64,000 nucleotides of DNA from assembly GCA_050248915.1 (NCBI GenBank), contig JBFWRL010000007.1, positions 6,084 through 70,083 on the forward strand, read 5' to 3'. Within the stretch, counting starts at the first letter, position 1. Every line of letters starts with the position of its first letter. The notes beneath the pieces were generated by a model. That model saw nothing but the letters and a program-made list of their open reading frames with translations, was not told the DNA's origin and searched no databases. Shown here piece by piece: positions 41,383-63,011 of the stretch. The position numbers were made by a program, and so were the translations under genes. The DNA comes from Candidatus Sericytochromatia bacterium. GTDB taxonomy: Bacteria > Cyanobacteriota > Sericytochromatia > UBA7694.

Positions 41383-43127
41383 GGAGCCAAAGCAGTCTGG
41401 GAATTGAGCGAATAGACTTGGTAGGGAAAGGGCAACATCGGATGCACCAAATAGTGGTTCACCTGGGGCTGTACCAGCCAATAATCAACAGGGTGGTACA
41501 GAAACAGCCAAGGGGCATCTTCGAGAATCAGGCGTGCGGCCTCGGCATAGTGCTCATAGCGTTTGGGCTCAGAATAGAGGTCCTCGGCCATACCCACCAA
41601 TTGGTCGACACGTGGGTTGCTGTAACGGGCCGTATTAGAGCCCGGCCAACCGGCCTGAGAAGAGTGAAAGGTGGGATAAAAGAGCTGGCTGGGGTCGACC
41701 AGATCAGGACTCCAAATCGTGTGGTAAAAGATCGGCGGCGTGCGGTAGGCTCCAGTACCCAAAGTGGCCTGAGAAACCAATTTAATTTTCACACCCGCAG
41801 CAGCCAGATTTTCTTGAACTTTGCGACAGATGGCATACGATTGATCGTTGTTTTGGTAATAGAGCGTTAACTCCAAATGGGGGTTTTGCCAGGGTTCAAC
41901 AAAACCATCTCCGTCTTTGTCGCGCCAACCGGCTTCAAAGAGCAGATTTTTGGCTTTGTCGGTATCCTGACGAAAGAGCGGCTCTTTGAGACGGCCACCG
42001 GGAAATTCAGGCGGGAAAACACCCGTCACAGGGCGAGCATAGGTCTGCAAAATATGGTCAGTGATCGCCTGTTTATCCACGGCAAAATTAAAGGCCTTGC
42101 GCACCTTGGGCTCATTAAAGGGGAAGCTCTGGTTGTCCATGTTCAGATAATGGGTCGACCAGCGGGGAATTTTGAGCACTTTGGATTGCTGCAAATTGCT
42201 TTGGCTATTGGCTTTAACCATTTTTTCTTGGCCCAAGGGGTTCCAGACGGGATCTTCGAGCACGCGCTCAAAATATTGGCCGGGCACCGGGGCATGGTCA
42301 ACCTGCTTTTTGACAAAGGCCTGGAAGCGATCATTGGTCTCGGGCATGATCTGAAAGCGCAACCCGCTGATCTGAGCGGTCTGCGGGTCGTAAAAGCCAT
42401 CAAAGCGCTGCAGCGAAATCGTCTGATCGGCATCGACCTCTTGCAATTGGTAAGGGCCGGCTCCCACAGGGGCTTTGCGGAAATCTTTCCACCAGCGCTC
42501 GACATCTTCGGCGGGCACAATCGAAAAATAGGGCAGGGTGAGCAAATCGAGTGCCATCGGGATCGCGTTTTCAAGATGAATCTGAACCAAGTGGTGATCG
42601 ATCACCTCGACGCCGAGCAAATGGGGCTCACGCACCCCGGCCCGGCGGGCGGCTTGGTAGCGTTTGAGGCCGCGAATATTCAGGCGGTTAATGGCCCAGG
42701 CACCGGGAGAGTTCAAATTGGGATTGCAGGCCCGTTCCAGCGAATATTTGACATCGGCAGCGGTGATCAGGCGACCATTGTGAAAACGGGCCTCCGGGCG
42801 CAGCTTAAAAATATACGATTTTTTGTCGGGGGCCACTTCCCAGGATTCGGCCAAAGCAGGCACAACCTGGTTATACGCCCCGGCACGGGGAGGACGAATG
42901 GTGGGTGAATAAGCCACCAAGCCCTGGTGAATCAGGGAGCTGATCTCCTGGCTTTCGGGCGTGGACATATACAATGGGTCAAAATTGCCTACCGCTTTGT
43001 CTAAATAGGTGCGGAACGTCGTTTGGGCCTCTGCGGCAGGCATCTGGGTGCCCAGCAGACCCAAATTCACCCCCAGGGCCAAACTGAACGCCAGCATTTT
43101 CGTCATTTTCATCTTTCCCCTCCTCAA
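41379..43127 (-). CDS. ABC transporter substrate-binding protein, family 5 (peptide/nickel/opine type)
   Basis: Signal peptide, about 570 aa, SBP_bac_5-like collinearity. The 4-bp overlap with lysS upstream suggests translational coupling. Confidence 0.75.
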   Translation of the reverse strand: MRRGKMKMTKMLAFSLALGVNLGLLGTQMPAAEAQTTFRTYLDKAVGNFDPLYMSTPESQEISSLIHQGLVAYSPTIRPPRAGAYNQVVPALAESWEVAPDKKSYIFKLRPEARFHNGRLITAADVKYSLERACNPNLNSPGAWAINRLNIRGLKRYQAARRAGVREPHLLGVEVIDHHLVQIHLENAIPMALDLLTLPYFSIVPAEDVERWWKDFRKAPVGAGPYQLQEVDADQTISLQRFDGFYDPQTAQISGLRFQIMPETNDRFQAFVKKQVDHAPVPGQYFERVLEDPVWNPLGQEKMVKANSQSNLQQSKVLKIPRWSTHYLNMDNQSFPFNEPKVRKAFNFAVDKQAITDHILQTYARPVTGVFPPEFPGGRLKEPLFRQDTDKAKNLLFEAGWRDKDGDGFVEPWQNPHLELTLYYQNNDQSYAICRKVQENLAAAGVKIKLVSQATLGTGAYRTPPIFYHTIWSPDLVDPSQLFYPTFHSSQAGWPGSNTARYSNPRVDQLVGMAEDLYSEPKRYEHYAEAARLILEDAPWLFLYHPVDYWLVQPQVNHYLVHPMLPFPYQVYSLNSQTALAP

Positions 43128-44596
43128 GCTTGCGGGCGCATATGGGGAAACAGCAACACGTCGCGAATCGAAGCAGAATCGGTCAAAAGCATGATCAGGC
43201 GATCAATACCAATGCCCAAGCCTCCGGTTGGCGGCATGCCATGTTCCAGCGCCAGAATGTATTCATGGTCCATTGCGTGTGCCTCTTCGTCGCCCGAATC
43301 TTTGGCTTCGAGCTGCTTTTCAAAGCGGGCACGTTGATCAATCGGATCATTGAGCTCTGAAAAGGCATTGGCCATTTCCCGACCGGTGATAAAGAGCTCA
43401 AAACGCTCAGTCAGTTCGGGATTGGACCTGTGTTCTTTGGCCAAAGGAGAGATCTCCTTGGGGTAGTCGATAATAAAAGTGGGCTGAATCAGGCGGGAAT
43501 CCACACTTTCGAAGATCTCGTTAATAATTTTGCCCAGACCAAAACTGGGTTCAATGGCAATATTGTACTTGGCGGCAGCCGCAGCGGCTGTGTCGCGCGA
43601 GACAAAATCTGCGGGGGTCAATTCGAGAAATTGGCAAATGGCCTCGACCATGGTCATGCGCGCCCAGGGGCGGGCAAAGTCCACTTCGGTCTCTTGGTAG
43701 GTAATTTTGAGGCTACCGTGAATCTCTTGTACGAGATGGCAAATCAGCTCTTCGGTCAGGTTCATCATGTCTTGGTAATCGGCATAAGCCTGATACAGCT
43801 CCAACATGGTGAACTCGGGGTTGTGGCGCGTGGACATGCCCTCGTTGCGGAAATTGCGGTTGAGTTCAAAGACCCGGTCAAAGCCGCCGACGATCAAGCG
43901 CTTGAGATAGAGTTCGGGGGCAATTCGCAGGAACAATTCCATGTCCAAGGCGTTGTGGTGGGTTTTAAAGGGGCGCGCCGCTGCTCCACCGGGAATCGGG
44001 TGCAGCATCGGGGTTTCGACTTCGAGGAATTCGCGCACGGTCAAAAATTGGCGAATCAAACTGAGGGCCCGGCTGCGGGCCACAAAGGTCTCGCGCACCT
44101 CGGGATTGACGATCAGATCGAGGTAGCGCTGGCGGTAGCGCAGGTCTACGTCGGTCAGACCGTGGTATTTTTCGGGCAGGGGGCGCAGGGATTTGGCCAA
44201 GAGCGTGAGTTCTTCGGCCTGCACACTCAGTTCACCTGTATTTGTGCGGGCCACCAGGCCTTTGAGGCCGACCATATCGCCAATATCCAGCATTTTCAGT
44301 TGCTGGTAGGCCTCTTCGCCAATTTTGTTCAACATGATCATGCCCTGCAGACGTTCGCCGCCGTCGCGCAGGTCCAAAAATGTCAGCTTGCCTTTGCCCC
44401 GCCAGCCGGTAATCCGTCCGGCAATGGTGACCACTTCTTCCGACTTCTCCCCATTGGCCAATTTTTCGGCATAGGCTTCGCGAATTTGGGCAAAGGTATG
44501 GGTGCGGTCAAAATGATAAGGGTAGGGAGAAATACCCGCTTCACGCAGCTGATCCAGCTTGTGGCGGCGCATTTCAAGCTCACTGAGATGTTCCAT
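43124..44596 (-). CDS. lysS: Lysine--tRNA ligase (class II)
   Basis: N-terminal anticodon-binding OB region and class II motifs 1-3 (…[21 protein letters not shown]…, …[16 protein letters not shown]…). Confidence 0.95.
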
Positions 44597-44686
44597 GATA
44601 ATTTCCTGTAGTTTGGTGCATAGGCGTAGTTCAAATGATCTTCATTGTACCCGAAGCGGGGGCCTCTGCGCAAAAACTGGCTTTAG

Positions 44687-47600
44687 CTAAAACAGGGGTC
44701 GCAGGGAGCCCGGCGCCCCCTGATTGACAAAGAGCCGGATGCGATCCAGCCGGGCCTGTAAGAGAGTGCGCTGGACAGGATTCTGTTCTTGCAGGGCCTG
44801 GGTATTCAGGGTCTGAATTTCAGCATCGATCTCGGCCCGTGTAACCGGAAAACCATTCAAACGGGGCGTTACCACTTGAATTTGAATGCCGTCTCTTCCC
44901 ACAAACAAGGGGGCAGATACGGCAGCTTTGCCGGGTATTTGCAGCGAAATTTCAGGTTCTTCGGGCGTTGGCGACGGTGGTTGGGAGACTTCAATTCTGC
45001 CTGTCTTCAGAGCTTCTGGGCTGATTATCACTGGACCTGGGCCCGCTGGCAGCACAATTTCAAGCGAAAGATCGCCCGCTGGCAGACTAATTTCAGGCTG
45101 AGTCTCTTGCTCTCTTGCCGGTTTTGGAGCAGGACCAGCCTTTTCTTCGTCCACCAGAATCAAGGGAATGGGTGCTGGCGGGAATGAAACATCTTCTAAA
45201 CCAACATGTACCCGACCGCCCAGTGTTTGGGGAATGCCCGCCAAGCTGGTTGGCGGATCTTGGGCCAGGGCCTGGGTCAAGATCAGGGCCTCGGCCCGCG
45301 TAATTTTGCCAGAAGCCAAATCCTGCTCAATCTGGATCTGAATGGCCTGGTTCTGCTCCAGAGTGGGAGCCACTTTGCCATCGGGCCCGGGCAAATAGGC
45401 ATTGCGCCGCAAGAGCAGGGCTTCACTCTGGCTGATCCGCCCTGTTCTGAGATCTGTGTCAAGGGCCTGGGCAATCAGGTTTTTAAAACCGGCCTCGCCC
45501 TGACTCTGCACAATGGCCCGTCCCGTGCCACTTTGCCCTGTGCGCAGCAAAAACTCAGCCTGACCAATCACCCCATTTTGATTCAAACTGTTGAGAAAAT
45601 TGTCTGCCGCCAATTGCCCCTCGTTGGTGCCCAGACCCGTTTTGACCCGTTCCTGGATGGCCTCTTTTAAGCCTGTGCCTTCGTTGAGCAGGGTGCCAAT
45701 ACCAATACCAATGCTGTAGCTGTCCAAAACCAGAGACAGGCTCTGGGTGGCAGGAGAAAAAGCCGCCACATCACTGACCACGCTGACCAAATCGTTAAAA
45801 GTGGTGAAATCGTCTTTTCCCGCATTTAAATCCGAGATCAATGTGCCAATATCTTTGGCCAAAAAACCGGCATTGGCTAAAAAACCCAGTACAGGAATCC
45901 GACTTTCAGCTTTGAGTGCAACCTGGGAAGGCCCACTGGCAGCCTGGGCGGCCTCTGCTATTTTCTCAGGGCCTAGGGCCACAATTTTGGGCAACAACTC
46001 TTGCAGACCTTTGTTAAGTTTGTCCAGCCCAATAACATTGCCTACCGAGCTGCCAAATCCCACCAGTTTTTTTAAAAGTTCTGGTCGCTGGTTCAGGGCG
46101 GCAATAAATTGGTCCCCCACACCGGGCGAGAGGGCATTAAAGGTCTTTTGCAGGGAATTGACAAATTCTCCCACCTGCTCGGCCAATTTGGCATCTTTCA
46201 CCAGAGTCGAAATGGCACCTTTGAGCAGCTTGGCCTCGTCCCGCACAAACTTGGCGGCTTTTTCTGCGGCCTTGGCAATCAATGGAGAGGCTTTCGCTAA
46301 ATTCTGAGCACCTTCAAGAATATCCGCTGTCTTGGTGACAATTTCAAAGCCTTTCAAGGCTTTGTCTTTAAAAGAGAGCTCCAAGCGCAATACTCCTTTG
46401 GCCAGAGTCGATGGCGGGTCCAGAATCACCGTATTTTGGGCGCTGTCGACCGAAGCGACTTTAAAGGACTTCTCGCCAATGCGAACAGTGTCCCCAGCAC
46501 TGAGCAGATTGGCTTTGCCTGCAGGCAGTTGCAGGGCATTGCTGCCCGCAGGAATTTCAAAGGCAATCGGGTCAGCCCCCTGAAACAGGGTCTGAAAATT
46601 GCGCGAGATATCGCGTAAATTGCCCGGCGTTCCCAAGAGAGCGCCGATCCCATCCAGGCCTTTGACAAAATCTTCGGCGGACTTGCCTGGCCCCAAGAAC
46701 CCTTGCAGGAGTTTTTGTTTAACATCGGGCTCAGCCACAGCGTCAAAGCGCTCCAAAAATCCTTTGTAGGCCTGAACCAAGGTACCTGCCGCGCTGAGTT
46801 TGTCGAAATTGGAGGCATTGGGATCGGCCAGGGTTTTGAGGCTTTCGTTGATCTTTTGCGGTGTGGCATCCTCCCGAGCCAAACCTTCTCCCGCCAAGAA
46901 CTCTGTCCCGACGATCTTTTGGGGAGTTTCTAGACCTTCTTTGAGATTGGCAAAAGCCACCCCGGCTGTGGAGATAAAATCTGCACTCAACTGAGCTGGA
47001 GAGAGAGCAGCTTCGGTTGCAGCTGTGACAAAAGCGGCTTTTTTCTCGGGAGTGTCTAGCACAAAGCGGCTTTGTTCGGGATTGGCCTGCAATTGCTGAC
47101 GTAGAAAACTGGCAAAGGTCTGGGGATTCACGCCCAGCTCTGCTGCTGCCTGGGCCAAAACCTGGACATAATTGTCTTTGTTCAGATCCTGGCCACGCAC
47201 AATCAGGGGCTTGCCTTGGGCATCCTGCCCCAAATCCAATTCCACCTTGCCCAGGAAGAGCAGCCCTGAGGCATCTTTAAACGGCTGGATCTGCCTCTGC
47301 AGATCTGCCACGCGGGAAATTTCAGCAATGCCTGTCTCCTGAAGCAAAAATGCAGCAATTTGAGGATTGGAGGGCGTTGCCCCCGCCACCACAGCCAAAT
47401 TTTGCGCATTTTGGCTTTCGAGAAAATTAGCAAAGGCCCGATTCAATTCCTGCCCCAATTTTTCGCTGCCTGTGCGCCCAGCCCCTTGCAGACCCGCCGT
47501 GATTTGACGACTGGCATTGGCAAAGCGCGCCAACAGCGCCGGGTTCTCGTTGAGGGTGCGCCGTCCCAAGGCGCTCAGACCCTGAATTTTTTCGCGCAGC

Positions 47601-48190
47601 GCGGGGGAGATGCGTTCACTTTCCAAGCTTTGACGGACCTGGGGTGAGAGCGGATCTTGTTCTTTTGCTGCCGCAGCCTGAGACGCGGCACTGCGGGTCT
47701 CCAAACGACTCAAATCGCCATCTAAACGGGTGTAGAGCCGCTCCTCCTGCTGGAACACCGACAGCTCCAGGGCCAGCACTTCGCGCATGTTTGGAGACAG
47801 GCTTGGCTCTTTCAGGGCGGATTCAAAGCGCGAAATGCTCTGGCGCAAATTGCTCTGAAGGGTGTTTAACTCGCTGCGCAGGCTGTCTTGATCGGCTTTG
47901 GTCAAGGGCTGTTCGTTGCCGAGACGCTCCTGCAAACGGGCCACAAAGCCCAGAGAGGCCTGGGCCTGTTCCAGTTCGGGATTGCGGGCCTGGCTGGGCA
48001 CTTTGGGCTGATCGGTGCTGCCCGTTTTGGCGGCAGACGAAATCTGCAGCCGATCCAAAATCTGTATTTCTTTGCGTTCGACATTGCCATCACTCAAAAT
48101 TTGCTGCTTGGCCTCAGCCAGGGCGCGCCGGGCATTGGGAGCCGCTGTGGAAAAAGGTGAAAAGCTGCTGGGTTGAGAAGAGATTTGCAT
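44687..48190 (-). CDS. Giant hypothetical protein (1167 aa), Q/L/A-rich, no known domain
   Basis: Long uninterrupted ORF with coding-like composition. No signal peptide and no catalytic motif recognised. Confidence 0.5.
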   Translation of the reverse strand: MQISSQPSSFSPFSTAAPNARRALAEAKQQILSDGNVERKEIQILDRLQISSAAKTGSTDQPKVPSQARNPELEQAQASLGFVARLQERLGNEQPLTKADQDSLRSELNTLQSNLRQSISRFESALKEPSLSPNMREVLALELSVFQQEERLYTRLDGDLSRLETRSAASQAAAAKEQDPLSPQVRQSLESERISPALREKIQGLSALGRRTLNENPALLARFANASRQITAGLQGAGRTGSEKLGQELNRAFANFLESQNAQNLAVVAGATPSNPQIAAFLLQETGIAEISRVADLQRQIQPFKDASGLLFLGKVELDLGQDAQGKPLIVRGQDLNKDNYVQVLAQAAAELGVNPQTFASFLRQQLQANPEQSRFVLDTPEKKAAFVTAATEAALSPAQLSADFISTAGVAFANLKEGLETPQKIVGTEFLAGEGLAREDATPQKINESLKTLADPNASNFDKLSAAGTLVQAYKGFLERFDAVAEPDVKQKLLQGFLGPGKSAEDFVKGLDGIGALLGTPGNLRDISRNFQTLFQGADPIAFEIPAGSNALQLPAGKANLLSAGDTVRIGEKSFKVASVDSAQNTVILDPPSTLAKGVLRLELSFKDKALKGFEIVTKTADILEGAQNLAKASPLIAKAAEKAAKFVRDEAKLLKGAISTLVKDAKLAEQVGEFVNSLQKTFNALSPGVGDQFIAALNQRPELLKKLVGFGSSVGNVIGLDKLNKGLQELLPKIVALGPEKIAEAAQAASGPSQVALKAESRIPVLGFLANAGFLAKDIGTLISDLNAGKDDFTTFNDLVSVVSDVAAFSPATQSLSLVLDSYSIGIGIGTLLNEGTGLKEAIQERVKTGLGTNEGQLAADNFLNSLNQNGVIGQAEFLLRTGQSGTGRAIVQSQGEAGFKNLIAQALDTDLRTGRISQSEALLLRRNAYLPGPDGKVAPTLEQNQAIQIQIEQDLASGKITRAEALILTQALAQDPPTSLAGIPQTLGGRVHVGLEDVSFPPAPIPLILVDEEKAGPAPKPAREQETQPEISLPAGDLSLEIVLPAGPGPVIISPEALKTGRIEVSQPPSPTPEEPEISLQIPGKAAVSAPLFVGRDGIQIQVVTPRLNGFPVTRAEIDAEIQTLNTQALQEQNPVQRTLLQARLDRIRLFVNQGAPGSLRPLF

Positions 48191-48201
48191 GGGTTTTCTC
48201 C

Positions 48202-49719
48202 TTAAAACTGTGCTGAGGCCGAGGTAGTGGCCGAGGCTGGAAATGCCAGCGGGCGCCCCAGTTTGAGCAATTGCCCCATCTGGTTCAGGGCCTTTTCCCA
48301 GCTTTGCACCTCAAGCAACGCTGAATCCCAGTTATTTTCAATTTTTTCCAGGGCAGCCTGTCTGGACAGGGCACGGGTGCGGCGCTGGGCCAGAGCCAGG
48401 GCGGACCGCAGCGCCAAAAATGACTGACTCAGGCTCTGCAGGCTCTGCAAAAGCTGGGCCAAGCTCTCTCTCTCGGCACTTTCGGGCCAGCTCTCAGGCA
48501 GTTGAAAATCAGCCTGTTCGCGGGAACTCAAGGCGGGAGCTTCCTGCAGGGCCTGAAAATAGCCCAGGCGTTTTTCTACCAAAAGCAGGCCTGCCCGCAG
48601 GGGGGGCCATGCTGTACCGAGGGCTGTATTCTGCCTCAACTCGCTCAGACAGCGGTTTTTCAAGAGCAGGGCATCCCGGTGCAATTGGCGACACAGGGAT
48701 TCGTGGGTCACCCCGGCCAGATCAGCGTGGATCTCTATAAGGCGCTTGCACATCTGATCCAGGCTGCGCTGCAGGCGAACAGCGGCATCTAAGTGCAAGG
48801 CCTGGGCCTGGTCATTTTGCTGTCTGAACAGGCTCTGCAATTGGGCCTGCAGGGAGGCCTTTTCGGCATCTGAACAGCGCTGTAATTGGCTGCGTAGCGC
48901 AAAGATCCGGCTTTCCAATTGCTCTGGTTCCAGATCTTCAGGCAAATCCGGCAATTGCTGTGCCACACTTTTTGGCGCTGACACCGGCGTATCTGCAGGA
49001 TCTTCTGGGGGAGCGGTCTTTTCCCAGAGCTGCTGGACAACACGGGTCAGACTTTCTGCGAGGCTGAACAAAGCCGCTTTTTCCAAAGCAGGCAGGGGAT
49101 TGGGGGCGCGCAATTTCTCCAAAATTCGGGCCTCAGCGGCCAGAACAGCGGCCATCATGTCCATTTTATTCAGCCGCAGGCACTCCAATTTCTGGCTTTG
49201 GCGCTGCAGAAAAGGCCGCAAGAGGGCCATACCCTCCTGCTCTGAGAGAGCCGTTTTACCCGTATAAGGCAAGCTGAGTTGGGACTGCAACCCAAGCAGT
49301 TGGGTTTTAACCGCAGCCCAATGGCGAGAAGTATCTGAGACCGGTTCCTGTCCCAAGCGCTGCAAAAGCTGCTGCAAAAGATATTGAAAATCTTTGAGTT
49401 TTTCCAAGCGGTAACTGGCTTTTTTCTGACGCAGTTGCTCGGCCAAAACGGCAGAATCGGGAGCAACTTGTTTGACCTCGGAAGATGGAGATGCAGTGGA
49501 TTTTGTTTTCTCAAGCAATGGCGGCAAAGGAGCCAGCAGAACTTCACTTTCAGCCAAACCCTGCGCTTGGTTTTCCAAGCTGGGGGGCAAAAACAGGTTT
49601 TCTTCTTCTGGGCGCAAATCGCGGAGACGTGTTACCTTGCGCTGAAAACCCGCAGCGGCTTTGAGAGCTTCAAAATCCACCCCTGCAGGATGGCCTGCAG
49701 ACATTTTAAATAAACTCAT
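48202..49719 (-). CDS. Hypothetical coiled-coil protein (505 aa)
   Basis: Leu/Gln/Arg-rich heptad-like segments. 11-nt spacing to the downstream gene. Confidence 0.45.
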   Translation of the reverse strand: MSLFKMSAGHPAGVDFEALKAAAGFQRKVTRLRDLRPEEENLFLPPSLENQAQGLAESEVLLAPLPPLLEKTKSTASPSSEVKQVAPDSAVLAEQLRQKKASYRLEKLKDFQYLLQQLLQRLGQEPVSDTSRHWAAVKTQLLGLQSQLSLPYTGKTALSEQEGMALLRPFLQRQSQKLECLRLNKMDMMAAVLAAEARILEKLRAPNPLPALEKAALFSLAESLTRVVQQLWEKTAPPEDPADTPVSAPKSVAQQLPDLPEDLEPEQLESRIFALRSQLQRCSDAEKASLQAQLQSLFRQQNDQAQALHLDAAVRLQRSLDQMCKRLIEIHADLAGVTHESLCRQLHRDALLLKNRCLSELRQNTALGTAWPPLRAGLLLVEKRLGYFQALQEAPALSSREQADFQLPESWPESAERESLAQLLQSLQSLSQSFLALRSALALAQRRTRALSRQAALEKIENNWDSALLEVQSWEKALNQMGQLLKLGRPLAFPASATTSASAQF

Positions 49720-51536
49720 GCTTGGCCTCCGGCAAAACGCAAAGTATAAAAGGGCCAGTTTTGTCCGTCAGGCAAGGCAATGCTTTGTTCTGTCACCCCC
49801 GCGCGCACACGGTAGAGAAACCACTGTAAATCCGCATCGGCAAAGATTTCAGCTGAGATCACCACCTCCGCTTGAGCGGCCAATTCTAGCTGAAATTCAG
49901 CCATTTCCACGGCCAGCCCCTGGTAATTTAAGCTGGCAGAGTCTGCTTGGGTTTCACAGGGGCCCTCCGCCAAAGCCGCCCGAAAATACAGCGTTTGATC
50001 CGGCGGACGGCCACTGTTGAGCAGATTTAAATTCACATGCAGAGACCAGAGCGCCCGCAGACCGTCCAGCGGGTCTTGAAAAACCACCCTCGCGCCTGCT
50101 TGATCTTGGTTCAACACAACCCCTGCCCGGCTCTGCAGCAGTGGTGAGAGCAGTTCCTGCCGCTCGGCAGGGCTGTTTGCACCTTCCCAGCGCAGCTCCA
50201 AAAAACTGAGCCGGGACACAGGCAGCGCCTCTGCCGGGGCCTCACTGGCAAAAAGTTCACGAAATTCGGGCAGAGAACTCACCAAAGCACCAGAACAGAC
50301 CTGGGGGTCCCAGTCCTGTTTTTCAATCTGCAAAGTGCAAAAATAGGGACGGGAATTGTAAAGGGTCAAGCTGGCTCCTGGTGCCAATTCCAAGGGCTGG
50401 TCAGCCAGATTTTCCAGCGAAAGCTGGCCGGAGGCGGCCCCCTGTTCGGAGACCATCAACAGGCCTTCTTGCTGCAGGGACAGTGAGCGCAAAACATAAT
50501 TGCCCAGAGGCAATTGCAGTTCCCAGTCCCGTTTTTCTTCGGGCCAAAGGTTGAACTGTCCGGCCAGATGGGGTGTATTGGCCGGGCTGCCTGCACAAAA
50601 ATGGTCTTCTTGCAAAGCGCGAAGGGCCGTGTCTGGGAAAAAGCTCAGCTCCAGGTTCTGATCAAACCCCACCTGGTAGCCCGCCGCACAACTGGGGCAA
50701 TAGGCCTGGTGAGAGACCTCCTGTAGGTGCAGGTTGTTTTCCTTGGGGCCCTTGCAACCAGGACAGCGCAAGTCCCAGCGCAAATGCAAATCTCCCGCCC
50801 AGGTGACCCGCAGGCAAAAACGCAGGGTATCGAGGGGATTGAAGCCATAGAGACTGGCCAACTCAAAGGGGCGCAAGCGCCCAGCATAACGTTCTGGGGC
50901 CAAAAGTACGTAGCGGGCCAGTTGAGCGGGAATCGGGGATTGGGGTTGAAGTTCTTGCCAGCGCTCACTCAAATGGCTCAGGGCCGCTTGACTCTGGGGG
51001 CTGAGGACATTAAAAAAGACCTCCACCCCTTTTGCACCAGCCGTTAAAGCCTGATCCAGGTTTTGCCAGAACAGGGCCATTTTCTGTAAATTGTCTTTGA
51101 GGGCAGTGGCTATCAGCAGATCTGGCACAGCAGGCACATAGTCGATGCGCCCCGTGAGCAGACAGCCCTCGCCCTCGATAACAGTGTGGATAGAAAAGCG
51201 CAGATATTTGAACAGCCCTTGGCTGTAAATCCGCTCCACAGATAGAGCATGGCCTTCTTGCCATTCAAAGGGCAATTCCTGGTAGACCTGATTCAGGCCT
51301 GCGGCTTTGGTCTCGACCTCTAGCAAGCTGCCGCCCTGGCTCAGGGGAGAAAAGGCATTTTGGGTTGCACTCAAGCCTACTTTCTGATTGAGCAGGTCGG
51401 TATTGCAAATCAAGGGCCAGAGGGTGAGGGGACTGTTTTTGAGTTGCAGTGATTTTTCCTGCGTTTTGGCCTGATTGCGTAAAACTTCAATAGGTGTGAG
51501 CTTTTCCAAGATATTCAGACTGGCATTCATGCACAT
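49716..51536 (-). CDS. Hypothetical protein (606 aa) with a CxxC...CxxC cluster
   Basis: WDLRCPGCKG...AYCPSCAAGY zinc-ribbon-like cluster. 4-bp overlap with the downstream gene suggests translational coupling. Confidence 0.45.
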   Translation of the reverse strand: MCMNASLNILEKLTPIEVLRNQAKTQEKSLQLKNSPLTLWPLICNTDLLNQKVGLSATQNAFSPLSQGGSLLEVETKAAGLNQVYQELPFEWQEGHALSVERIYSQGLFKYLRFSIHTVIEGEGCLLTGRIDYVPAVPDLLIATALKDNLQKMALFWQNLDQALTAGAKGVEVFFNVLSPQSQAALSHLSERWQELQPQSPIPAQLARYVLLAPERYAGRLRPFELASLYGFNPLDTLRFCLRVTWAGDLHLRWDLRCPGCKGPKENNLHLQEVSHQAYCPSCAAGYQVGFDQNLELSFFPDTALRALQEDHFCAGSPANTPHLAGQFNLWPEEKRDWELQLPLGNYVLRSLSLQQEGLLMVSEQGAASGQLSLENLADQPLELAPGASLTLYNSRPYFCTLQIEKQDWDPQVCSGALVSSLPEFRELFASEAPAEALPVSRLSFLELRWEGANSPAERQELLSPLLQSRAGVVLNQDQAGARVVFQDPLDGLRALWSLHVNLNLLNSGRPPDQTLYFRAALAEGPCETQADSASLNYQGLAVEMAEFQLELAAQAEVVISAEIFADADLQWFLYRVRAGVTEQSIALPDGQNWPFYTLRFAGGQA

Positions 51537-51573
51537 CCATTACTCCGCTGCTTGTTTTCATCACTTTTGATGA

Positions 51574-52419
51574 TTATAAGTTAAAAAAAAGACTTTCACA
51601 AGCAGGCAAATAATGCCCCCCAATTGCCCCATTCAAGGTCACCAAAGCCTGGGGTGAAGCTTGGCAGCGCACGGCATAAGGCATGGTCGGGTGGGGCCGA
51701 AATACATAGACCTTGCCCCGCTCGCTCTCAGGCAAGGTGTGAAAGGGCTCGTTCTGGGCATGGTGCTGATGCTCAGCCCAGGCATCGACCAAAAAATGCA
51801 CCTCGCGCCCAGCCTGCACCGCCCGCTCGGCAAAGTCCAAGTCCTCGCCCCCCCAGCCCAGAAAATCTTCGTCGAAGCCGCCCAAACGGCGATAGGTTTC
51901 GCGGTAAATCGCAAAATTCCCGGCCCAGGCAAATTCATAAGCCGAGTGAAAGAGCTTGGGGTCGGGTAACAAACGGCCCTCTTGCCAGAGGTAGCGGGTG
52001 TCCCACCAATTGACAGGGGTCTCAGGAGCCCAGAGCGAAGGGGCCAAACGGGTTTTGTCGTAGCCGACATAGCCGTAGAGCAGGTCTTGTTGGCGAAAGC
52101 CCAAATAGGCGGCATAGGCCGACAGGCCTTCGGGATTGAGCAAGACATCGGCATCGAGAAAGACCAGAATCTCGCCCTGCGCGTTGGCGGCTCCGAGATT
52201 GCGCGAACGGCTCACACAGCGATCGTTTTCGCGCCAAAAATAGCGCAATGGGAGCGCAGGCACAAATTCCGCTGCGCAGGCCCGACCATTTTCGGAGCCA
52301 TCGTCGACCACCAGCACCTCAAACAGCACATGGCTTTGGGCCTGCAATTGGCGCAGACAGTGGGCCAAGGGGCCCTCGCGCCCCGGTGACATGCAGACCA
52401 CAACGCTGAGAAAAATCAC
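51574..52419 (-). CDS. Family 2 glycosyltransferase
   Basis: VVVCMSPGREG...VLVVDDGSENG...FLDADVLL (DxD) GT-A signature. Confidence 0.75.
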   Translation of the reverse strand: MIFLSVVVCMSPGREGPLAHCLRQLQAQSHVLFEVLVVDDGSENGRACAAEFVPALPLRYFWRENDRCVSRSRNLGAANAQGEILVFLDADVLLNPEGLSAYAAYLGFRQQDLLYGYVGYDKTRLAPSLWAPETPVNWWDTRYLWQEGRLLPDPKLFHSAYEFAWAGNFAIYRETYRRLGGFDEDFLGWGGEDLDFAERAVQAGREVHFLVDAWAEHQHHAQNEPFHTLPESERGKVYVFRPHPTMPYAVRCQASPQALVTLNGAIGGHYLPACESLFFNL

Positions 52420-52444
52420 GGCCGCACCCTGCCATTACCCGCCT

Positions 52445-52996
52445 TTAAGCCGGATTAAACAGCTTGAGCAGGGCAAAGATCAAAACACCTGTGACCGAGA
52501 CATAGAGCCAAATTGGATAGGTCCACTTGGCAATTTTGCGGTGAATTTCGCTTTTGCGGGTCAGGGCGAAATAAAAGGTCAGCAGCACCAGCGGCAGGGC
52601 CACGATGGAGAGGCCAATATGGCTAATCAAGGTAAAGAAATACACCGGGCGAATCAGGCCCAGGGCCAGAAATTTGGTATCGCCGTGCAGGCTGTGGTAG
52701 ACGATATAACTGATCAGAAAGAGGCTTGAAGAGGCAAAGGCCCCCAGCATCAAGCGCATATGCACCAGCGGTTGTTTGCGTTTGATCGCTACCAACCCCA
52801 ACAAGATCAAGGTTGCGCTGCTGCCATTTAAAAAGGCATTCAGCGCGGGCAAAGCACTCACCCAGCCACTCTGGCTGGGGGTATTCTGGCGGAAATAAAT
52901 CAGCCAAAACAAAAATAAAATGGCCAGCAAACTGACGCCCAGAATACCAGGCAGGGCCACTTTGCGGTCAAAACGAGAGTCCAAGGTTGTTTGCAT
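52445..52996 (-). CDS. DUF420-family membrane protein
   Basis: About 4 TM helices and an N-terminal motif set typical of DUF420. Confidence 0.6.
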   Translation of the reverse strand: MQTTLDSRFDRKVALPGILGVSLLAILFLFWLIYFRQNTPSQSGWVSALPALNAFLNGSSATLILLGLVAIKRKQPLVHMRLMLGAFASSSLFLISYIVYHSLHGDTKFLALGLIRPVYFFTLISHIGLSIVALPLVLLTFYFALTRKSEIHRKIAKWTYPIWLYVSVTGVLIFALLKLFNPA

Positions 52997-53037
52997 AAAA
53001 GTATCCTAGCAAAAGACAGGGGCTGGGGGAATCAGTA

Positions 53038-53781
53038 TCAGCGCGCAGGAGCTGTAACAGGGCCTGTAAACTGTTTTAAGACCCCAGTTGATCTAAATTT
53101 GAGCCATTGTCCGTAATAAAATGTCAATTCTTCGTAGAGCTTCACCATACCCACATCGGGGGCATACCAATAGTTGAGAAAGTCCTCTTTGCCATTGTCA
53201 TAGCGCAGGTGGTGTTCCATTTTTAGGGCCTGAAAGGTGCCAGCGGGCACCGTTACAGTTTCAAAACCCACCACACGGATGGTTTCAGAACCACCTTGAA
53301 AGAGACGGCCTTCCCAGGCTTTGCCACTTTCAAAGGGCAATTGCAGGGCAATGATAAAATTTTTGCCCCGCAGGACAGGCTCTTGCAGCGCAAAGCTCTC
53401 ACGCAGCACCTGTTCGTGGTAGCGTGAGAGTTCGACCCGATCAGCAAAGCGTTTGGCCAAGGTGGGGGTGGGTTTGATATCCGAATCGGGATACGAGCGG
53501 CGCAAAACCGCAGTTTGGGCCTCGCCTTCGGTGCCATTGGACTCCACACGCATGACCATGGTCTTAAATTTGGTATTGGGCTGGTCATTCTGACTCTGTT
53601 CCAGCAAATAGGTCCAGGAGCGGCCCATCTCCAGTGGATAATAGCGCTGCATTTGGGTGGCATTGACGGGTGCCTTTTGGGCCAAAAGGGGAGCGTTGGC
53701 ACTTTGGGGCGCACGCGCAGGCAAAACAGCAGATTGACAGGCACTCAAAAGCAAGAACAGGGCGAGGGGCAGCTTGCGCAT
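53038..53781 (-). CDS. Hypothetical lipoprotein
   Basis: Signal peptide and lipobox LLSAC. 247 aa. Confidence 0.5.
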   Translation of the reverse strand: MRKLPLALFLLLSACQSAVLPARAPQSANAPLLAQKAPVNATQMQRYYPLEMGRSWTYLLEQSQNDQPNTKFKTMVMRVESNGTEGEAQTAVLRRSYPDSDIKPTPTLAKRFADRVELSRYHEQVLRESFALQEPVLRGKNFIIALQLPFESGKAWEGRLFQGGSETIRVVGFETVTVPAGTFQALKMEHHLRYDNGKEDFLNYWYAPDVGMVKLYEELTFYYGQWLKFRSTGVLKQFTGPVTAPAR

Positions 53782-53993
53782 GGAAAAACCTCAAAATGAT
53801 TTCCACCCATTATACCACCTCCTTCGACTCCGCTCAGGCATCCACTTCGACTCCGCTCAATAGCCCTCTATTCGAGCATCTGCACACCCGATCGGTTCCT
53901 GAGCGGAGTCGAAGGACCGATCCCTTACAACCTGTTATATACTGTAAAAGTAAACTTCCCAATAACCAGCCAAAATTATTACCCGGAGGCCCT

Positions 53994-55139
53994 ATGACAA
54001 CCCCACTCACCACCCTTTCCGAAGACGAAACCCTGTTTAAACAGATGGTCAGCGAATTTGCCCAAGAAAAAATTAAACCCCTGCGTTCGCAAATGGACCA
54101 CGATGCCCAATTTGACAAAGGCCTGATCAAAGCCTTCTTTGACCTGGATATCATGGGCATCGAAATCCCCGAAGCCCATGGCGGCGTGGGTGCCAATTTC
54201 TTTATGTCGATTCTGGCCGTAGAAGCCCTGTCCGAAGTGGATGCCTCCGCGGGGGTCTTGGTCGATGTGCAAAATACCTTGGTCAACAACGCCCTGATCC
54301 GCTGGGGCAACGACGATCAAAAAGCGCGCTATTTGCCCAAAATGGCCAGTGAGTGGATTGGGGCGTATGCCCTTTCCGAAGCAGGCTCTGGCTCTGATGC
54401 CTTTGCGCTGCAAACCCAGGCCCAAGACCAAGGCGATCACTTTGTGCTCAATGGCAATAAACTCTGGATCACCAATGCCGGAGAGGCCAATTTGTTTATT
54501 ATTTTTGCCACCACCGACAAGGGCCTGGGCTATAAAGGCATCACTGCTTTTATTGTCGAGCGCGGCTTTGAGGGTTTTACCATCGGCAAAAAAGAAGACA
54601 AACTCGGCATTCGCGCCAGCAGCACTTGCGAATTGCAGCTCAATAATTGCCGTGTGCCCAAAGCCAACGTGCTCGGTGAAGTTGGCAAAGGCTATAAAGT
54701 GGCAATTGAAACCCTCAACGAAGGCCGAATTGGCATCGGTGCACAAATGATTGGCCTGGCCCAAGGCGCTTTAAATTGTGGCCTGCAATACATCAAAGAG
54801 CGGGAGCAATTTGGCAAATCGATTGCCTCATTCCAGGGTGTGCAGTTTCAGATCGCTGAACTGGCCACCCAGATCGAAGCGGCCCGTCTGCTGGTTTACA
54901 ATGCCGCCCGCTTAAAAGATGCAGGATTGCCCTTTTTGAAAGAGGCGGCCATGGCCAAACTCTTCTCTTCTCAAGTGGCTGAAAAAGTGGCATCTCAAGT
55001 GGTGGAACTGCACGGCGGCTATGGCTATACCAAAGAATACCCTGCTGAAAAATACTTCCGCGATTGCAAAATTGGCAAGATCTACGAAGGCACTTCCAAT
55101 ATGCAATTGCAGACCATCGCCAAGATTATCCTGGGTTAG
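53994..55139 (+). CDS. Acyl-CoA dehydrogenase (short/branched-chain type)
   Basis: Full ACAD collinearity (…YALSEAGSGSDAF…, …GGYGYTKEYPAEKYFRDCKIGKIYEGTSNMQ…). GGAGG RBS at 53986. The ORF track starts at 53670; the ATG at 53994 is the plausible start. Confidence 0.92.
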   Translation: MTTPLTTLSEDETLFKQMVSEFAQEKIKPLRSQMDHDAQFDKGLIKAFFDLDIMGIEIPEAHGGVGANFFMSILAVEALSEVDASAGVLVDVQNTLVNNALIRWGNDDQKARYLPKMASEWIGAYALSEAGSGSDAFALQTQAQDQGDHFVLNGNKLWITNAGEANLFIIFATTDKGLGYKGITAFIVERGFEGFTIGKKEDKLGIRASSTCELQLNNCRVPKANVLGEVGKGYKVAIETLNEGRIGIGAQMIGLAQGALNCGLQYIKEREQFGKSIASFQGVQFQIAELATQIEAARLLVYNAARLKDAGLPFLKEAAMAKLFSSQVAEKVASQVVELHGGYGYTKEYPAEKYFRDCKIGKIYEGTSNMQLQTIAKIILG

Positions 55140-55154
55140 ATCTGCAGCAAAACA

Positions 55155-55184
55155 AAAGCGCTCCGGAATTCTGGGGCGCTTTTA
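55155..55184. terminator. Bidirectional rho-independent terminator
   Basis: aaaagcgctccgg-aattc-tggggcgctttt hairpin with flanking A and T runs between convergent genes. Confidence 0.7.
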
Positions 55185-55649
55185 GTTGTTTGTCATAATG
55201 AGGGGAATGCCTTTGACACTGATGCGCGAAGCACTTTGATCATAGCCGTAAATGGCATAGGCGCCCAAGGCAAATTGTTCATAAGTTAAAAGCCCTTTGG
55301 TTTTGGGCTGAGATTCGTCATCAAAGGCATTGCCCTTGCCCTGCAGGCCAGTATAGGGATTCTGCAATTCTTTGAACAATTGGCTGTTCCGCATTTCTGG
55401 CTCAGCACTCAAAGCCGTAACATCAGCGGGATAAATCCCCCCATACAGCGCACTGTAAATTTCAACCATGGTTCTAAATGCCGACATATTGGCTTTGGTA
55501 CTGGCATCTTTGGCCCTGGACTGGGCCGCATTAAACTGGGGCAGCGCAATGGCCACCAAAATACCAATAATCACAATCACAACCATCAACTCTATCAAGG
55601 TGAACCCGCGTTGCTGGGTTCTGAGCTTCAGCTTCCATTCACGTAACAT
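55182..55649 (-). CDS. Prepilin-type N-terminal cleavage/methylation domain protein (type IV pilin / pseudopilin-like)
   Basis: QRG|FTLIELMVVIVIIGILVAIALP class III signal sequence. Start taken at the internal Met (MLREW). Confidence 0.75.
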   Translation of the reverse strand: MLREWKLKLRTQQRGFTLIELMVVIVIIGILVAIALPQFNAAQSRAKDASTKANMSAFRTMVEIYSALYGGIYPADVTALSAEPEMRNSQLFKELQNPYTGLQGKGNAFDDESQPKTKGLLTYEQFALGAYAIYGYDQSASRISVKGIPLIMTNN

Positions 55650-55795
55650 TAAAATACCCCTTATACCTGAAAAACACTGATTTTGCCGATCGTCAAAACT
55701 CAAATTTCAGAAAAAATCAAAATCTCAAAAAATGTCAATTAAATGATATTAAATTCTATTCCCAAAATCTAAAAATCACAAACCCCTGATAAAAA

Positions 55796-56899: not shown

Positions 56900-56930
56900 A
56901 CCCGATAGGCTGAAAAGAGGTAAATCATGC
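56900..56930 (+). promoter_or_regulatory. Candidate sigma-28 (FliA)-type promoter upstream of fliK
   Basis: TTAAGTTA-N12-CCGATAG against consensus TAAAGTTT-N11-GCCGATAA. Ends immediately before the fliK ATG. Confidence 0.35.
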
Positions 56931-58465: not shown

Positions 58466-58476
58466 AGGAGTTTTAA

Positions 58477-58902
58477 ATGCCCATCCTCGATCCCCTGATC
58501 TTTAACACCCCGCAGAAAGCGGCCGATGCCCTACCCAGCCAACAGATGGGGAAAAATGACTTTCTCAATTTGCTGATGGTGCAATTGCGCAATCAGGATC
58601 CCCTGAATGTGCAAGATGATCGCGAGTTTATCGCCCAAATGGCCCAATTCAGCTCGTTGGAGCAAACCACCAATTTGGCGCTGGCGCTTGAGAATTTGGT
58701 GGGTTTTCAGCAGTTGACCCAGGGCAGCTCGCTCTTGGGAAAAGAAGTGGAGGCCCTGTATACCTCTGAAGACGGTGAAAATGCCGAAAGTTTGCAAGGC
58801 GTTGTCACTGAAACCCGCATGATCAGTGGTGAAGCCTTTGTGGTGGTCGATGACAAAGTCATCCCCATGAAAAATATCACCCGTGTGAGCGAAAAGAAAT
58901 AG
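58477..58902 (+). CDS. flgD: Flagellar hook capping/assembly protein FlgD
   Basis: GKNDFLNLLMVQLRNQDPLNVQDDREFIAQMAQFSSLEQ is the FlgD N-terminal signature. Confidence 0.8.
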   Translation: MPILDPLIFNTPQKAADALPSQQMGKNDFLNLLMVQLRNQDPLNVQDDREFIAQMAQFSSLEQTTNLALALENLVGFQQLTQGSSLLGKEVEALYTSEDGENAESLQGVVTETRMISGEAFVVVDDKVIPMKNITRVSEKK

Positions 58903-58961
58903 AGATTTTAAACCATGAAACAGTTTATTTTAAGCAATGACCACTCAGGGAGGCAGATATC

Positions 58962-61127: not shown

Positions 61128-61132
61128 GCTAA

Positions 61133-61357: not shown

Positions 61358-61383
61358 TACAATATGTTGGGATTTTGTAAAAC

Positions 61384-63008: not shown

Positions 63009-63011
63009 GGA

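What the first reader, a model, noticed from the sequence alone, without database searches (positions are those of the whole stretch)
44687..51536. Three-gene operon of giant uncharacterised proteins (1167, 505 and 606 aa): candidate undescribed system
Nearly 7 kb of coding sequence is devoted to three proteins with no recognisable catalytic, secretion or nucleic-acid-binding motifs. The first gene (606 aa) has a CxxC...CxxC zinc-ribbon-like cluster and a C-terminal region faintly reminiscent of a degenerate nucleotidyl cyclase. The second is coiled-coil. The third (1167 aa) is Q/L/A-rich with internal ...[IS]x[RQ][AS]EAL[IL]L... repeats near the C-terminus. Spacing is tight (a 4-bp overlap, then an 11-bp gap). 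The operon sits between a GT2 glycosyltransferase and lysS. It could be a lineage-specific cytoskeletal or effector complex.
Basis: inference. Interest (0 to 1): 0.6.

Follow-up and report, generated by a model that had tools for sequence, protein, structure and literature searches.

The report
Dead cyclase, partner, giant protein
The three genes are real and belong to an uncultured, non-photosynthetic relative of cyanobacteria: a sensor-like enzyme relic that has lost its catalytic residues, a helical partner gene that always follows it, and a giant protein with the amino-acid make-up of exported proteins, whose shared function is still unknown.

Summary
The three minus-strand ORFs, their spacing and their neighbours are as described. 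The window comes from a Candidatus Sericytochromatia MAG.

- **Gene A (606 aa)** is not featureless. It has an SRPBCC/START fold, then a DUF5939 region with an invariant four-cysteine zinc ribbon, then a class III cyclase fold. All catalytic residues of that fold are replaced, so it is a pseudo-cyclase.
- **The dead-cyclase clade** forms one branch in a midpoint-rooted NJ tree, and all its located members are Sericytochromatia or Blackallbacteria MAGs. Every one of 16 distinct loci with sequence downstream carries a B-family gene that overlaps or abuts it. None of 11 catalytically intact relatives does.
- **Gene B (505 aa)** is a fast-evolving, probably helical orphan.
- **Gene C (1167 aa)** has only five to six relatives at cluster level and no Cys or Trp. 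Its C-terminal half also occurs away from A-B.
- **In other lineages** A-B sits next to different giant Cys-free proteins, in three gene orders. These share an N-terminal module, and C matches that module weakly.

The best reading is a conserved pseudo-cyclase/partner pair coupled to a variable giant protein that is probably exported. The mechanism is inferred, not shown.

The parts
49716..51536 (-). Gene A, 606 aa: SRPBCC + DUF5939 (zinc ribbon) + catalytically dead class III cyclase domain (a pseudo-cyclase)
51042..51497 (-). A residues 14-165: SRPBCC/START (helix-grip) domain, a putative pocket for a small hydrophobic ligand
50688..50765 (-). A residues 258-283: zinc ribbon with four cysteines (CPGC...CPSC)
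   Evidence: C258, C261, C280 and C283 are invariant in 36 sequences. The CxxC pairs sit at the turns of two beta-hairpins in the model. The motifs were located.
49737..50222 (-). A residues 439-600: cyclase-homology domain that has lost its catalytic residues (R449, N476, A480, A542, E544, F548) and has a deletion of about 13 residues after the first strand
48202..49719 (-). Gene B, 505 aa: obligate partner of the pseudo-cyclase, probably helical, with no known family
   Evidence: The ATGA overlap with A is. A B-family gene follows every dead-cyclase A that has sequence downstream. There are no Pfam, NCBIfam, PADLOC, PHROG or PDB hits.
44687..48190 (-). Gene C, 1167 aa: giant protein with 0 Cys, 0 Trp, 1 His, 2 Met and 5 Tyr, and no signal peptide or transmembrane segment
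   Evidence: The ORF is and the composition. An exhaustive search of 1.84 billion representatives returned only 4 hits. The AF2 model is mostly helical but poor, with pLDDT 50.5.
47696..48190 (-). C residues 1-165: N-terminal module (start peptide M-Q-I-S-S-Q and the helices at 83-161) with weak similarity to the N-termini of the giant proteins next to A-B in other lineages
   Evidence: hhalign gives E = 0.0015, score 30.5, over 77 columns, against a maximum of 21.6 in 100 column shuffles and 12-20 for 11 natural helical controls. The best non-self HMM hit among 1405 ORFs is the L011 giant, but at E = 0.44.
45251..46693 (-). C residues 500-980: the conserved core shared with the distant relatives P0047 and P0048. 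It holds a small beta domain (542-603), an IPVLG hydrophobic hairpin (about 764-835) and two G[RK]I[ST]xxEAL helices (917-971).
   Evidence: See the phmmer result, alignment A4, the secondary structure and the repeats.
44840..45250 (-). C residues 981-1117: proline-rich linker predicted to be disordered, found only in the window/Blackallbacteria clade
   Evidence: pLDDT is below 50 with no secondary structure. The segment is absent from P0047 and P0048.
44687..44839 (-). C residues 1118-1167 plus the stop codon: conserved C-terminal helices with the motif NPVxRxLL...QGAPG
   Evidence: The motif is conserved in all six family members, including P0047 and P0048.
51573..51601 (-). Promoter-like site TTGTGA-17-TATAAT just upstream of A, inside the 3' end of the GT2 gene
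   Evidence: This is the best match in 43000-54500, at 10 of 12 positions. It is a consensus match only.
48191..48201 (-). B-C junction: an AAGGAG ribosome-binding site overlaps the B stop codon, 11 bp before the C start
   Evidence: The sequence is.

Best explanation
The locus encodes a module specific to Sericytochromatia.

**Shown**
- A is a pseudo-enzyme. It arose by duplication of an SRPBCC-DUF5939-cyclase (a class III adenylate-type cyclase with a hydrophobic-ligand-binding domain).
- A keeps the N-terminal SRPBCC domain, the zinc ribbon and the cyclase fold, but has lost every residue needed for catalysis.
- In the same clade that lost catalysis, A is always followed by a translationally coupled gene, B. 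The two have stayed together in every locus examined.
- In most lineages the A-B pair lies next to a giant protein that almost lacks Cys, His and Trp. These giants differ in their bodies. At least outside the window clade, they share an N-terminal module.

**Inferred**
- A and B are cytoplasmic and form a complex. The dead cyclase domain serves as a dimerisation or binding surface, and the SRPBCC domain still senses a small hydrophobic ligand.
- The A-B complex recognises the N-terminal module of the giant protein (C in this window) and controls its handling. The most likely role is holding or releasing it for Sec-independent export or extracellular assembly.
- The middle segment of B is found only in lineages with an adjacent giant. 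It is the candidate contact site.
For: **A's architecture and loss of catalysis**
- The AF2 model has pLDDT 92.5.
- The catalytic positions read Asp1 to R449, Lys to N476, Asp2 to A480, Asn to E544 and Arg to F548. None of the 29 clade members keeps Asp1, Lys, Asn or Arg. Five keep an Asp at the second metal site. All 7 active relatives keep all five.
- The invariant residues of the N-terminal domains are shared by dead and active members.

**Single origin and linkage to B**
- In the NJ tree the dead clade forms one branch.
- All 16 distinct dead-cyclase loci with downstream sequence have an overlapping or abutting ORF of 380-530 aa on the same strand. None of 11 intact-motif loci does.
- Those downstream ORFs form one family.
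- Five MAGs carry both a dead and an active paralogue.

**Operon**
- Coupling is shown by the ATGA overlap and the ribosome-binding site over the B stop codon.
- The triad is intact in three different flanking contexts.

**The giant partner**
- An N-terminal HMM built from the giants beside A-B in L014, L020, L009 and L010 also finds adjacent giants in L012 (E = 1e-28) and L011 (E = 6e-15).
- The gene order varies: co-directional, convergent or divergent.
- All have 0-1 Cys, 0-5 His and 1-5 Trp, whereas A and B have ordinary composition.
- C's N-terminus matches this module at hhalign E = 0.0015, well above the shuffles and the natural controls.
- Loci with a short B (L001, L005, L007) lack the middle B segment and have no giant nearby.
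Against: - No physical interaction, ligand, localisation or export was tested.
- The similarity between C and the other giants is weak (hhalign probability 17%), and the hmmsearch match is not significant on its own (E = 0.44).
- C's C-terminal half occurs in two metagenomic contigs without A or B, so C does not strictly depend on the pair.
- The A-B pairs of the L001/L005/L007 clade have no giant within 10 kb, so the pair can exist without one nearby.
- C has no recognisable secretion signal. The link from Cys/Trp/His-poor composition to export rests on general knowledge, not on a test.
- B's structure was never modelled.
- All sequences come from MAGs and metagenomes, so statements such as 'same genome' depend on binning.
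Confidence: 0.4

Rival explanations
1. A-B is a self-contained cytoplasmic signalling pair. The dead cyclase domain heterodimerises with the active DUF5939 cyclase paralogue, or otherwise modulates it, and so tunes cAMP output. B is its regulator. C and the other giants are neighbours with no mechanistic link.
For: Class III cyclases work as dimers, and pseudo-symmetric pairs with one degenerate site are well established (general knowledge). Five MAGs hold both the dead and the active paralogue. The fold and the N-terminal sensor residues are conserved in both. A-B occurs without a nearby giant in L001, L005 and L007. C's core occurs without A-B.
Against: Giants sharing an N-terminal module lie directly next to A-B in three different gene orders and several subclades. 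C is translationally coupled to B, and the triad moves as a unit. Whether the window's own genome has the active paralogue is unknown.
Confidence: 0.25
2. The three proteins form an intracellular structural or cytoskeletal complex of helical proteins.
For: B and C are helix-rich, with some heptad-like stretches. There are no enzymatic motifs in B or C. No signal peptide or transmembrane segment was found.
Against: C has 0 Cys, 0 Trp and 1 His in 1167 residues. The averages for the window's ORFs of 250 aa or more are 0.8%, 1.4% and 2.3%, so C's composition is atypical for a cytoplasmic protein here. Only about 15% of B and 10% of C score as heptad-like, and for C this is within the range of shuffled sequences. 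A sensor-type pseudo-enzyme is not expected as a filament subunit.
Confidence: 0.1
3. It is a polymorphic toxin or effector system, or an anti-phage defence system: a conserved N-terminal delivery module on a variable giant payload, with A-B as adaptor or sensor.
Against: PADLOC gives nothing significant. No toxin, nuclease, protease or other effector domain appears in any giant. No conserved small immunity-like gene was seen. The cyclase is dead, so there is no nucleotide signal. The locus sits among housekeeping genes such as lysS.
Confidence: 0.1
4. There is no system. The three are unrelated, fast-evolving lineage-specific genes that happen to lie next to each other.
For: B and C have very few homologues, and C is not co-conserved with A-B at depth.
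Against: The association of B with dead-cyclase A is perfect: 16 of 16 distinct loci, against 0 of 11 for active relatives. The genes are translationally coupled. The triad is conserved in three flanking contexts.
Confidence: 0.05

Closest known systems
DUF5939-containing class III adenylate/guanylate cyclases (Pfam PF19363 + PF00211), including the active paralogues in the same Sericytochromatia MAGs
   Same: They share the same three-part architecture and length (about 600 aa). They share the invariant residues of the SRPBCC domain, the four-cysteine zinc ribbon and the FCAGSPANTPH motif, and they have the same cyclase fold.
   Different: Window A has lost both metal-binding Asp residues, the substrate Lys, and the transition-state Asn and Arg, and it has a deletion of about 13 residues. 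It always carries a coupled B gene, which the active enzymes never do. The family itself is uncharacterised: no paper in the searched library mentions DUF5939.
Class III adenylyl cyclase-like ATP-binding protein of Pseudomonas aeruginosa (PDB 6yii) and other non-catalytic cyclase-homology domains
   Different: The PDB entry describes 6yii as an ATP-binding cyclase-like protein and names the molecule a transcriptional regulator. Here the neighbouring domains are SRPBCC and a zinc ribbon, the phosphate- and metal-binding region is deleted or replaced, and the output appears to be a separate partner protein.
Pseudo-symmetric cyclase dimers with one degenerate site (mammalian adenylyl cyclase C1/C2, soluble guanylyl cyclase alpha/beta); from general knowledge
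   Same: A catalytically incompetent cyclase-homology domain can still work as a dimer partner. Dead and active paralogues co-occur in five MAGs.
   Different: In those enzymes each subunit contributes half of one working site. Window A lacks residues from both halves, so a heterodimer would gain no catalytic residue from it.
Secretion substrates with dedicated cytoplasmic chaperones or adaptors (flagellar and injectisome type III substrates; LXG toxins with helical Lap partners in type VII secretion); a functional analogy only, from general knowledge
   Same: Each has a conserved N-terminal region on otherwise variable large proteins. The cargo is poor in Cys, Trp and His and lacks a Sec signal. 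The handler genes are cytoplasmic and adjacent. Flagellar export genes lie 5.4 kb away in the window.
   Different: There is no sequence or fold similarity to any known chaperone or adaptor. A and B (606 and 505 aa) are far larger than type III chaperones. No secretion-system gene is part of the conserved neighbourhood. Export itself is untested.

Membership tests
Class III nucleotidyl cyclase (Pfam PF00211, cyclase-homology domain) | Cyclase-homology fold | tested here: met
Class III nucleotidyl cyclase (Pfam PF00211, cyclase-homology domain) | Two metal-binding aspartates | tested here: not met
   These positions are R449 and A480 in the window protein. Asp1 is absent from all 29 clade members and present in all 7 active relatives. 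Five clade members keep an Asp at the second site.
Class III nucleotidyl cyclase (Pfam PF00211, cyclase-homology domain) | Substrate-specifying Lys (or Glu) and its partner residue | tested here: not met
   These positions are N476 and A542. Lys is absent from all 29 clade members.
Class III nucleotidyl cyclase (Pfam PF00211, cyclase-homology domain) | Transition-state Asn and Arg (NxxxR) | tested here: not met
   These positions are E544 and F548. Neither Asn nor Arg is kept in any clade member.
Class III nucleotidyl cyclase (Pfam PF00211, cyclase-homology domain) | Pfam model match in the window protein itself | tested here: not met
   There is no PF00211 hit at E up to 0.1. Only relatives at 24-34% identity carry it.
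DUF5939 (Pfam PF19363) | Match above the curated gathering score | tested here: met
   The score is 35.9 bits against a cut-off of 22.5, E = 6e-9, for residues 201-306. The match is partial, covering profile positions 18-124 of 281. All 35 homologue clusters carry PF19363.
SRPBCC / START / Bet v 1 superfamily | Helix-grip fold | tested here: met
SRPBCC / START / Bet v 1 superfamily | Binds a hydrophobic ligand in the pocket | not testable with these tools
   No ligand docking or experiment was available.
Zinc ribbon | Two CxxC knuckles at beta-hairpin turns, with conserved cysteines | tested here: met
   C258, C261, C280 and C283 are invariant. The hairpins E250-257/E264-268 and E277-280/E285-288 flank them. 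Metal binding itself is untested.
Cyclase-based anti-phage systems (Pycsar, CBASS-like) and other PADLOC systems | An active cyclase plus a recognised effector, or a match to a defence-protein model | tested here: not met
   The cyclase is dead. PADLOC gives no hit for A or B, and only E = 0.035 for C.
Coiled-coil cytoskeletal proteins (B and C) | Long continuous heptad repeats | tested here: inconclusive
   A crude heptad count of my own found 77 of 505 residues in B (shuffles: mean 9, sd 18, maximum 96) and 119 of 1167 in C (shuffles: mean 27, sd 29, maximum 130). No dedicated coiled-coil predictor was available, and there is no model of B.
Polymorphic toxin / effector proteins | A recognisable toxin or enzymatic payload domain and an adjacent immunity gene | tested here: not met
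   There are no significant Pfam or PHROG hits in C, L014g, L020g or L009g. No conserved small downstream gene was seen.
Sec-independent secretion substrate with a cytoplasmic handler (type III-like analogy) | No Sec signal, composition poor in Cys/Trp/His, and a conserved N-terminal region | tested here: met
   No signal peptide or transmembrane segment was found. C has 0 Cys, 0 Trp and 1 His. This composition resembles that of FlgD and FlgE in the same window.
Sec-independent secretion substrate with a cytoplasmic handler (type III-like analogy) | Demonstrated export and binding to the handler | not testable with these tools
   This needs secretome data or interaction assays.

The most novel reading that the evidence does not exclude
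Sericytochromatia have a previously undescribed three-component apparatus. A ligand-sensing pseudo-cyclase and its helical partner act as a dedicated cytoplasmic gate or adaptor for a family of polymorphic giant proteins. These giants share an N-terminal recognition module and are poor in oxidation-prone residues. They are exported by a Sec-independent route, possibly the flagellar-type export apparatus, to build or modify an extracellular structure in response to a small hydrophobic signal.
Probability: 0.2. Interest if true: 0.75.

Novelty: new variant of a known kind. Interest (0 to 1): 0.5.

Why it matters
It is a clean natural case of an enzyme becoming a pseudo-enzyme. One duplication of a sensor-cyclase was followed by complete loss of catalysis, and the same clade always carries a partner gene after it. 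That makes the question of what a dead cyclase domain does directly testable, using A alone, A with B, and the active paralogue.

It also picks out a family of giant orphan proteins of odd composition, and their likely handlers, in the non-photosynthetic sister lineage of cyanobacteria, whose cell biology is almost unknown. If the pair gates the export or assembly of these giants, it would be a new way of coupling small-molecule sensing to the deployment of surface proteins.

If not, the practical result is still a better annotation. A should be called an 'SRPBCC-DUF5939 pseudo-cyclase', not an 'adenylate cyclase'.

Tried and rejected
**Searches that found nothing**
- Pfam, NCBIfam, PADLOC and PHROGs on B and C gave nothing significant. 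The only hits were PBAN E = 0.034, dephospho-CoA kinase E = 0.007, Ppl E = 0.035 and Goodbye E = 0.054, which I treat as noise.
- PDB sequence and profile searches for B and C gave nothing. The hits were de novo helical bundles at E = 0.03 or worse and spidroin at E = 0.03.
- The single-sequence PDB search with A hit only affinity-tag sequences (AviTag-like GLNDIFEAQKIEWHE), which is a chance match.
- 'DUF5939' appears in 0 papers, and the searches for cyclase pseudo-enzymes returned nothing relevant.
- Rfam and tRNA scans of the window found nothing.

**Structure work on C**
- AF2 of C from a 4-sequence alignment gave pLDDT 50.5 and pTM 0.26.
- Foldseek against the PDB gave no hit below E = 0.3, so no fold is assigned.

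**Homology tests among the giants**
- The full-length comparison of C with the third genes of L014 and L020 found no homology (BLAST; hhalign probability 0.15%). Only the N-terminal module shows a weak signal.
- ORF 17583-20180 (865 aa, Cys-free) was checked as a possible paralogue of C and rejected.

**Readings rejected**
- C as a flagellar axial protein: no flagellar Pfam domains.
- A as a Pycsar or CBASS cyclase: it is dead, and there is no PADLOC hit.

**Run that failed**

Full report
**1. Observation**

The window carries three consecutive minus-strand ORFs: A (49716-51536, 606 aa), B (48202-49719, 505 aa) and C (44687-48190, 1167 aa).
- A and B overlap by ATGA, with GGAGG upstream.
- B and C are 11 bp apart, and an AAGGAG site overlaps the B stop codon.
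- The best sigma-70-like match in the region (TTGTGA-17-TATAAT, 51601-51573) lies just upstream of A. This is a consensus match only.
- A GT2 glycosyltransferase, a DUF420 protein and a DUF3108-like protein lie upstream. lysS, a family-5 solute-binding protein and an S51 peptidase lie downstream.
- The CxxC pairs (258, 280) and the two EAL[IL]L repeats (919, 963) are present.
- B is 100% identical to an NCBI protein from a Candidatus Sericytochromatia MAG. All close relatives are Sericytochromatia or Blackallbacteria.

**2. Gene A is a pseudo-cyclase with a sensor-type N-terminus**

- Pfam finds DUF5939 above threshold. The 35 homologue clusters are all about 600 aa long and all carry DUF5939. 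The most distant ones also carry PF00211.
- A family profile hits solved class III cyclases (Ma1120, E = 1e-14).
- AlphaFold2 with 36 sequences gives a confident model (pLDDT 92.5, pTM 0.89).
- Between these domains lie a helical segment and a beta region. The four invariant cysteines there sit at two hairpin turns, which is the zinc-ribbon arrangement.
- In the alignment, relatives at 24-34% identity keep the canonical motifs F[TS]D, KT[IM]GD and [VI]NxAAR. Window A has R449, N476, A480, E544 and F548 at those positions, and a deletion of about 13 residues.
- None of the 29 members of this clade keeps the first Asp, the Lys, the Asn or the Arg. Five keep an Asp at the second metal site. By the established mechanism of class III cyclases, A cannot be a cyclase.
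- The invariant residues of the N-terminal domains are shared by dead and active members. The sensing part therefore looks intact.

**3. A and B are an obligate pair**

- Loci came from a scan of one genome per species, a scan of metagenomes, and look-ups of individual proteins.
- Every A homologue with dead motifs that had sequence downstream is followed by an overlapping or abutting same-strand ORF of 380-530 aa. That is 16 distinct loci: the window, L001, L003 (the same place as L031), L004, L005, L007-L012, L014, L019, L020, L022 and L032.
- None of the 11 homologues with intact motifs has such an ORF.
- The downstream ORFs form one family by transitive BLAST (alignment A2). Only a few residues are invariant (F25, R104, P169, L171, K177, E213, L220).
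- A neighbour-joining tree places all dead-cyclase/B-linked proteins on one branch, apart from the active ones.
- Five MAGs hold both a dead and an active paralogue.
- The simplest history is one duplication within Sericytochromatia, followed in one copy by loss of catalysis and gain of B.
- B has no hit in Pfam, NCBIfam, PADLOC, PHROGs or PDB.
- B's composition suggests a helical protein. Only two short stretches look heptad-like in a crude test of my own.

**4. Gene C**

- C is a near-orphan. The word-indexed search found 3 clusters, and the exhaustive search of 1.84 billion representatives found 4.
- Two of these are distant: P0047 (619 aa) and P0048 (1317 aa). They match only C residues of about 500-980 plus the C-terminal motif, and they lie in contigs without A or B.
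- The full A-B-C triad is found in three flanking contexts:
  - the window and L004;
  - L003/L031;
  - L032.
- L031 and L032 come from one metagenome, and their B proteins carry the same MAG locus-tag prefix. They may be two copies in one genome.
- Relatives at 42-46% A identity (L001, L005, L007) have A-B but no C.
- C has 0 Cys, 0 Trp, 1 His, 2 Met and 5 Tyr in 1167 residues. A and B have ordinary composition.
- C has no transmembrane segment or Sec-type N-terminus.
- The AF2 model of C is poor (pLDDT 50.5). It shows mostly helices, a small beta domain (542-603) and a disordered proline-rich linker (981-1117). No fold match was obtained.

**5. A recurring giant partner**

- In other A-B loci the adjacent gene is again a giant ORF with no Pfam hit and almost no Cys:
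  - co-directional in L014 and L020 (943 and 930 aa);
  - convergent in L009 and L010 (about 1954-1967 aa after trimming to the likely start codon).
- An HMM of the N-terminal 260 residues of these four also finds giants lying divergently next to A in L012 (1073 aa, E = 1e-28) and L011 (1155 aa, E = 6e-15).
- These giants share an N-terminal peptide (M-x-S-[IV]-S/Q-[ST]) and a helix-loop-helix region of about 80 residues. Their bodies are related only in subsets.
- The C family matches this module weakly but above every control. hhalign gives E = 0.0015 and score 30.5 over 77 co-located columns. The maximum was 21.6 in 100 column shuffles, and 11 natural helical controls scored 12-20.
- The best non-self hit of the C N-terminal HMM among 1405 ORFs is the L011 giant, although at E = 0.44.
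- I put the chance that C is a diverged member of this partner class at about 0.6.
- Loci with a short B lack the middle segment of B and have no giant within 10 kb. That points to the middle segment of B as a possible contact site. This is inference.

**6. Mechanism**

Shown: the pseudo-cyclase architecture, its single origin, the strict A-B linkage, the translational coupling, the recurrent adjacency to giant Cys-poor proteins, and the contrast in composition.

Inferred:
- A and B are cytoplasmic and form a complex that uses the dead cyclase domain as a binding surface.
- The SRPBCC domain still senses a hydrophobic ligand.
- The complex handles the giant protein through its N-terminal module, probably for Sec-independent export or extracellular assembly.

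A flagellar gene cluster lies 5.4 kb away in the window (fliK, flgD, flgE, motA, motB, fliL). It shows that a type III-type export apparatus exists in this organism. FlgD and FlgE have a similar composition. No direct link was shown.

The main rival is a purely cytoplasmic signalling role, for example modulation of the active paralogue, with the giants as bystanders.

**7. Comparison and verdict**

- A is a member of Pfam DUF5939. By fold it belongs to the SRPBCC and class III cyclase superfamilies, but it fails every catalytic criterion of a cyclase.
- B and C belong to no described family.
- No defence, toxin or secretion-system model matches.
It is better framed as a conserved two-gene pseudo-cyclase module with a variable giant partner than as a fixed three-gene system.
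- Interest is moderate. The evolutionary pattern is clean and testable. The function remains inferred, and the organisms are uncultured.

Noticed in passing
window 56927-63602 (+): A flagellar gene cluster: fliK (56927-58465), flgD (58477-58902), flgE (58962-61127), motA (61384-62181), motB (62178-63008) and fliL (63012-63602). This Sericytochromatia MAG therefore encodes a flagellum and its type III-type export apparatus.
   Followed up: partly
window 17583-20180 (-): An 865-aa ORF with no Pfam hit and 0 Cys. Its N-terminal 'ALKNDGKVTAKELHEL' resembles C's 'ILSDGNVERKEIQIL' (an EF-hand-like half motif). No significant similarity to C, B or the other giants was found.
   Followed up: partly
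window 5156-7129 (-), 21403-23970 (-), 26439-27749 (-), 28347-30944 (+): Four more large ORFs (657, 855, 436 and 865 aa) have no Pfam family at E up to 1e-5. The window is rich in orphan proteins.
   Followed up: no
L009+L016, L010+L017, L008+L018, L012+L013, L022+L015: Five Sericytochromatia/Blackallbacteria MAGs each carry both a catalytically dead, B-linked DUF5939 protein and a paralogue with intact motifs.
   Followed up: yes
L031 (438-kb contig) and L032 (31-kb contig): Two complete A-B-C triads come from one metagenome. They are 73%, 61% and 79% identical to each other for A, B and C. Their B proteins carry the same MAG locus-tag prefix (COW36_06970 and COW36_06500). This may be a duplication of the whole triad, or two strains binned together.
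   Followed up: partly
L023, L025, L026, L027, L028: DUF5939 proteins also occur outside Sericytochromatia, in Beggiatoa, Planctomycetota and Actinomycetota MAGs, with intact or nearly intact cyclase motifs and no B gene. L028 (an Enterobacterales MAG, 877 aa) matches only residues 40-440 and has none of the cyclase motifs. It may be a different fusion.
   Followed up: no
L003 1-7238 / L031 226-7244: Upstream of the Blackallbacteria triad lie a NERD-protein kinase (1430 aa), a MAD7-family protein and a 1773-aa FtsK/SpoIIIE-domain protein. This looks like a separate conflict or defence-type cluster.
   Followed up: no
L012 9772-15108 (-): A second very large ORF (at least 1778 aa, cut off by the end of the locus) converges on B in L012. 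It has ordinary Cys/Trp/His content and only a weak PG_binding_1 hit, so it is not a member of the giant-partner class.
   Followed up: partly
window A residues 74-109 (window 51210-51317, -): The sequence GLNQVYQELPFEWQEGH resembles the AviTag biotin-acceptor peptide. It produced spurious PDB hits to tagged constructs. This is chance similarity.
   Followed up: yes
window 55182-55703 (-) and 55796-56800 (-): A protein with a prepilin-type N-terminal methylation motif and a cupin/JmjC-domain protein lie between the operon's neighbourhood and the flagellar cluster.
   Followed up: no
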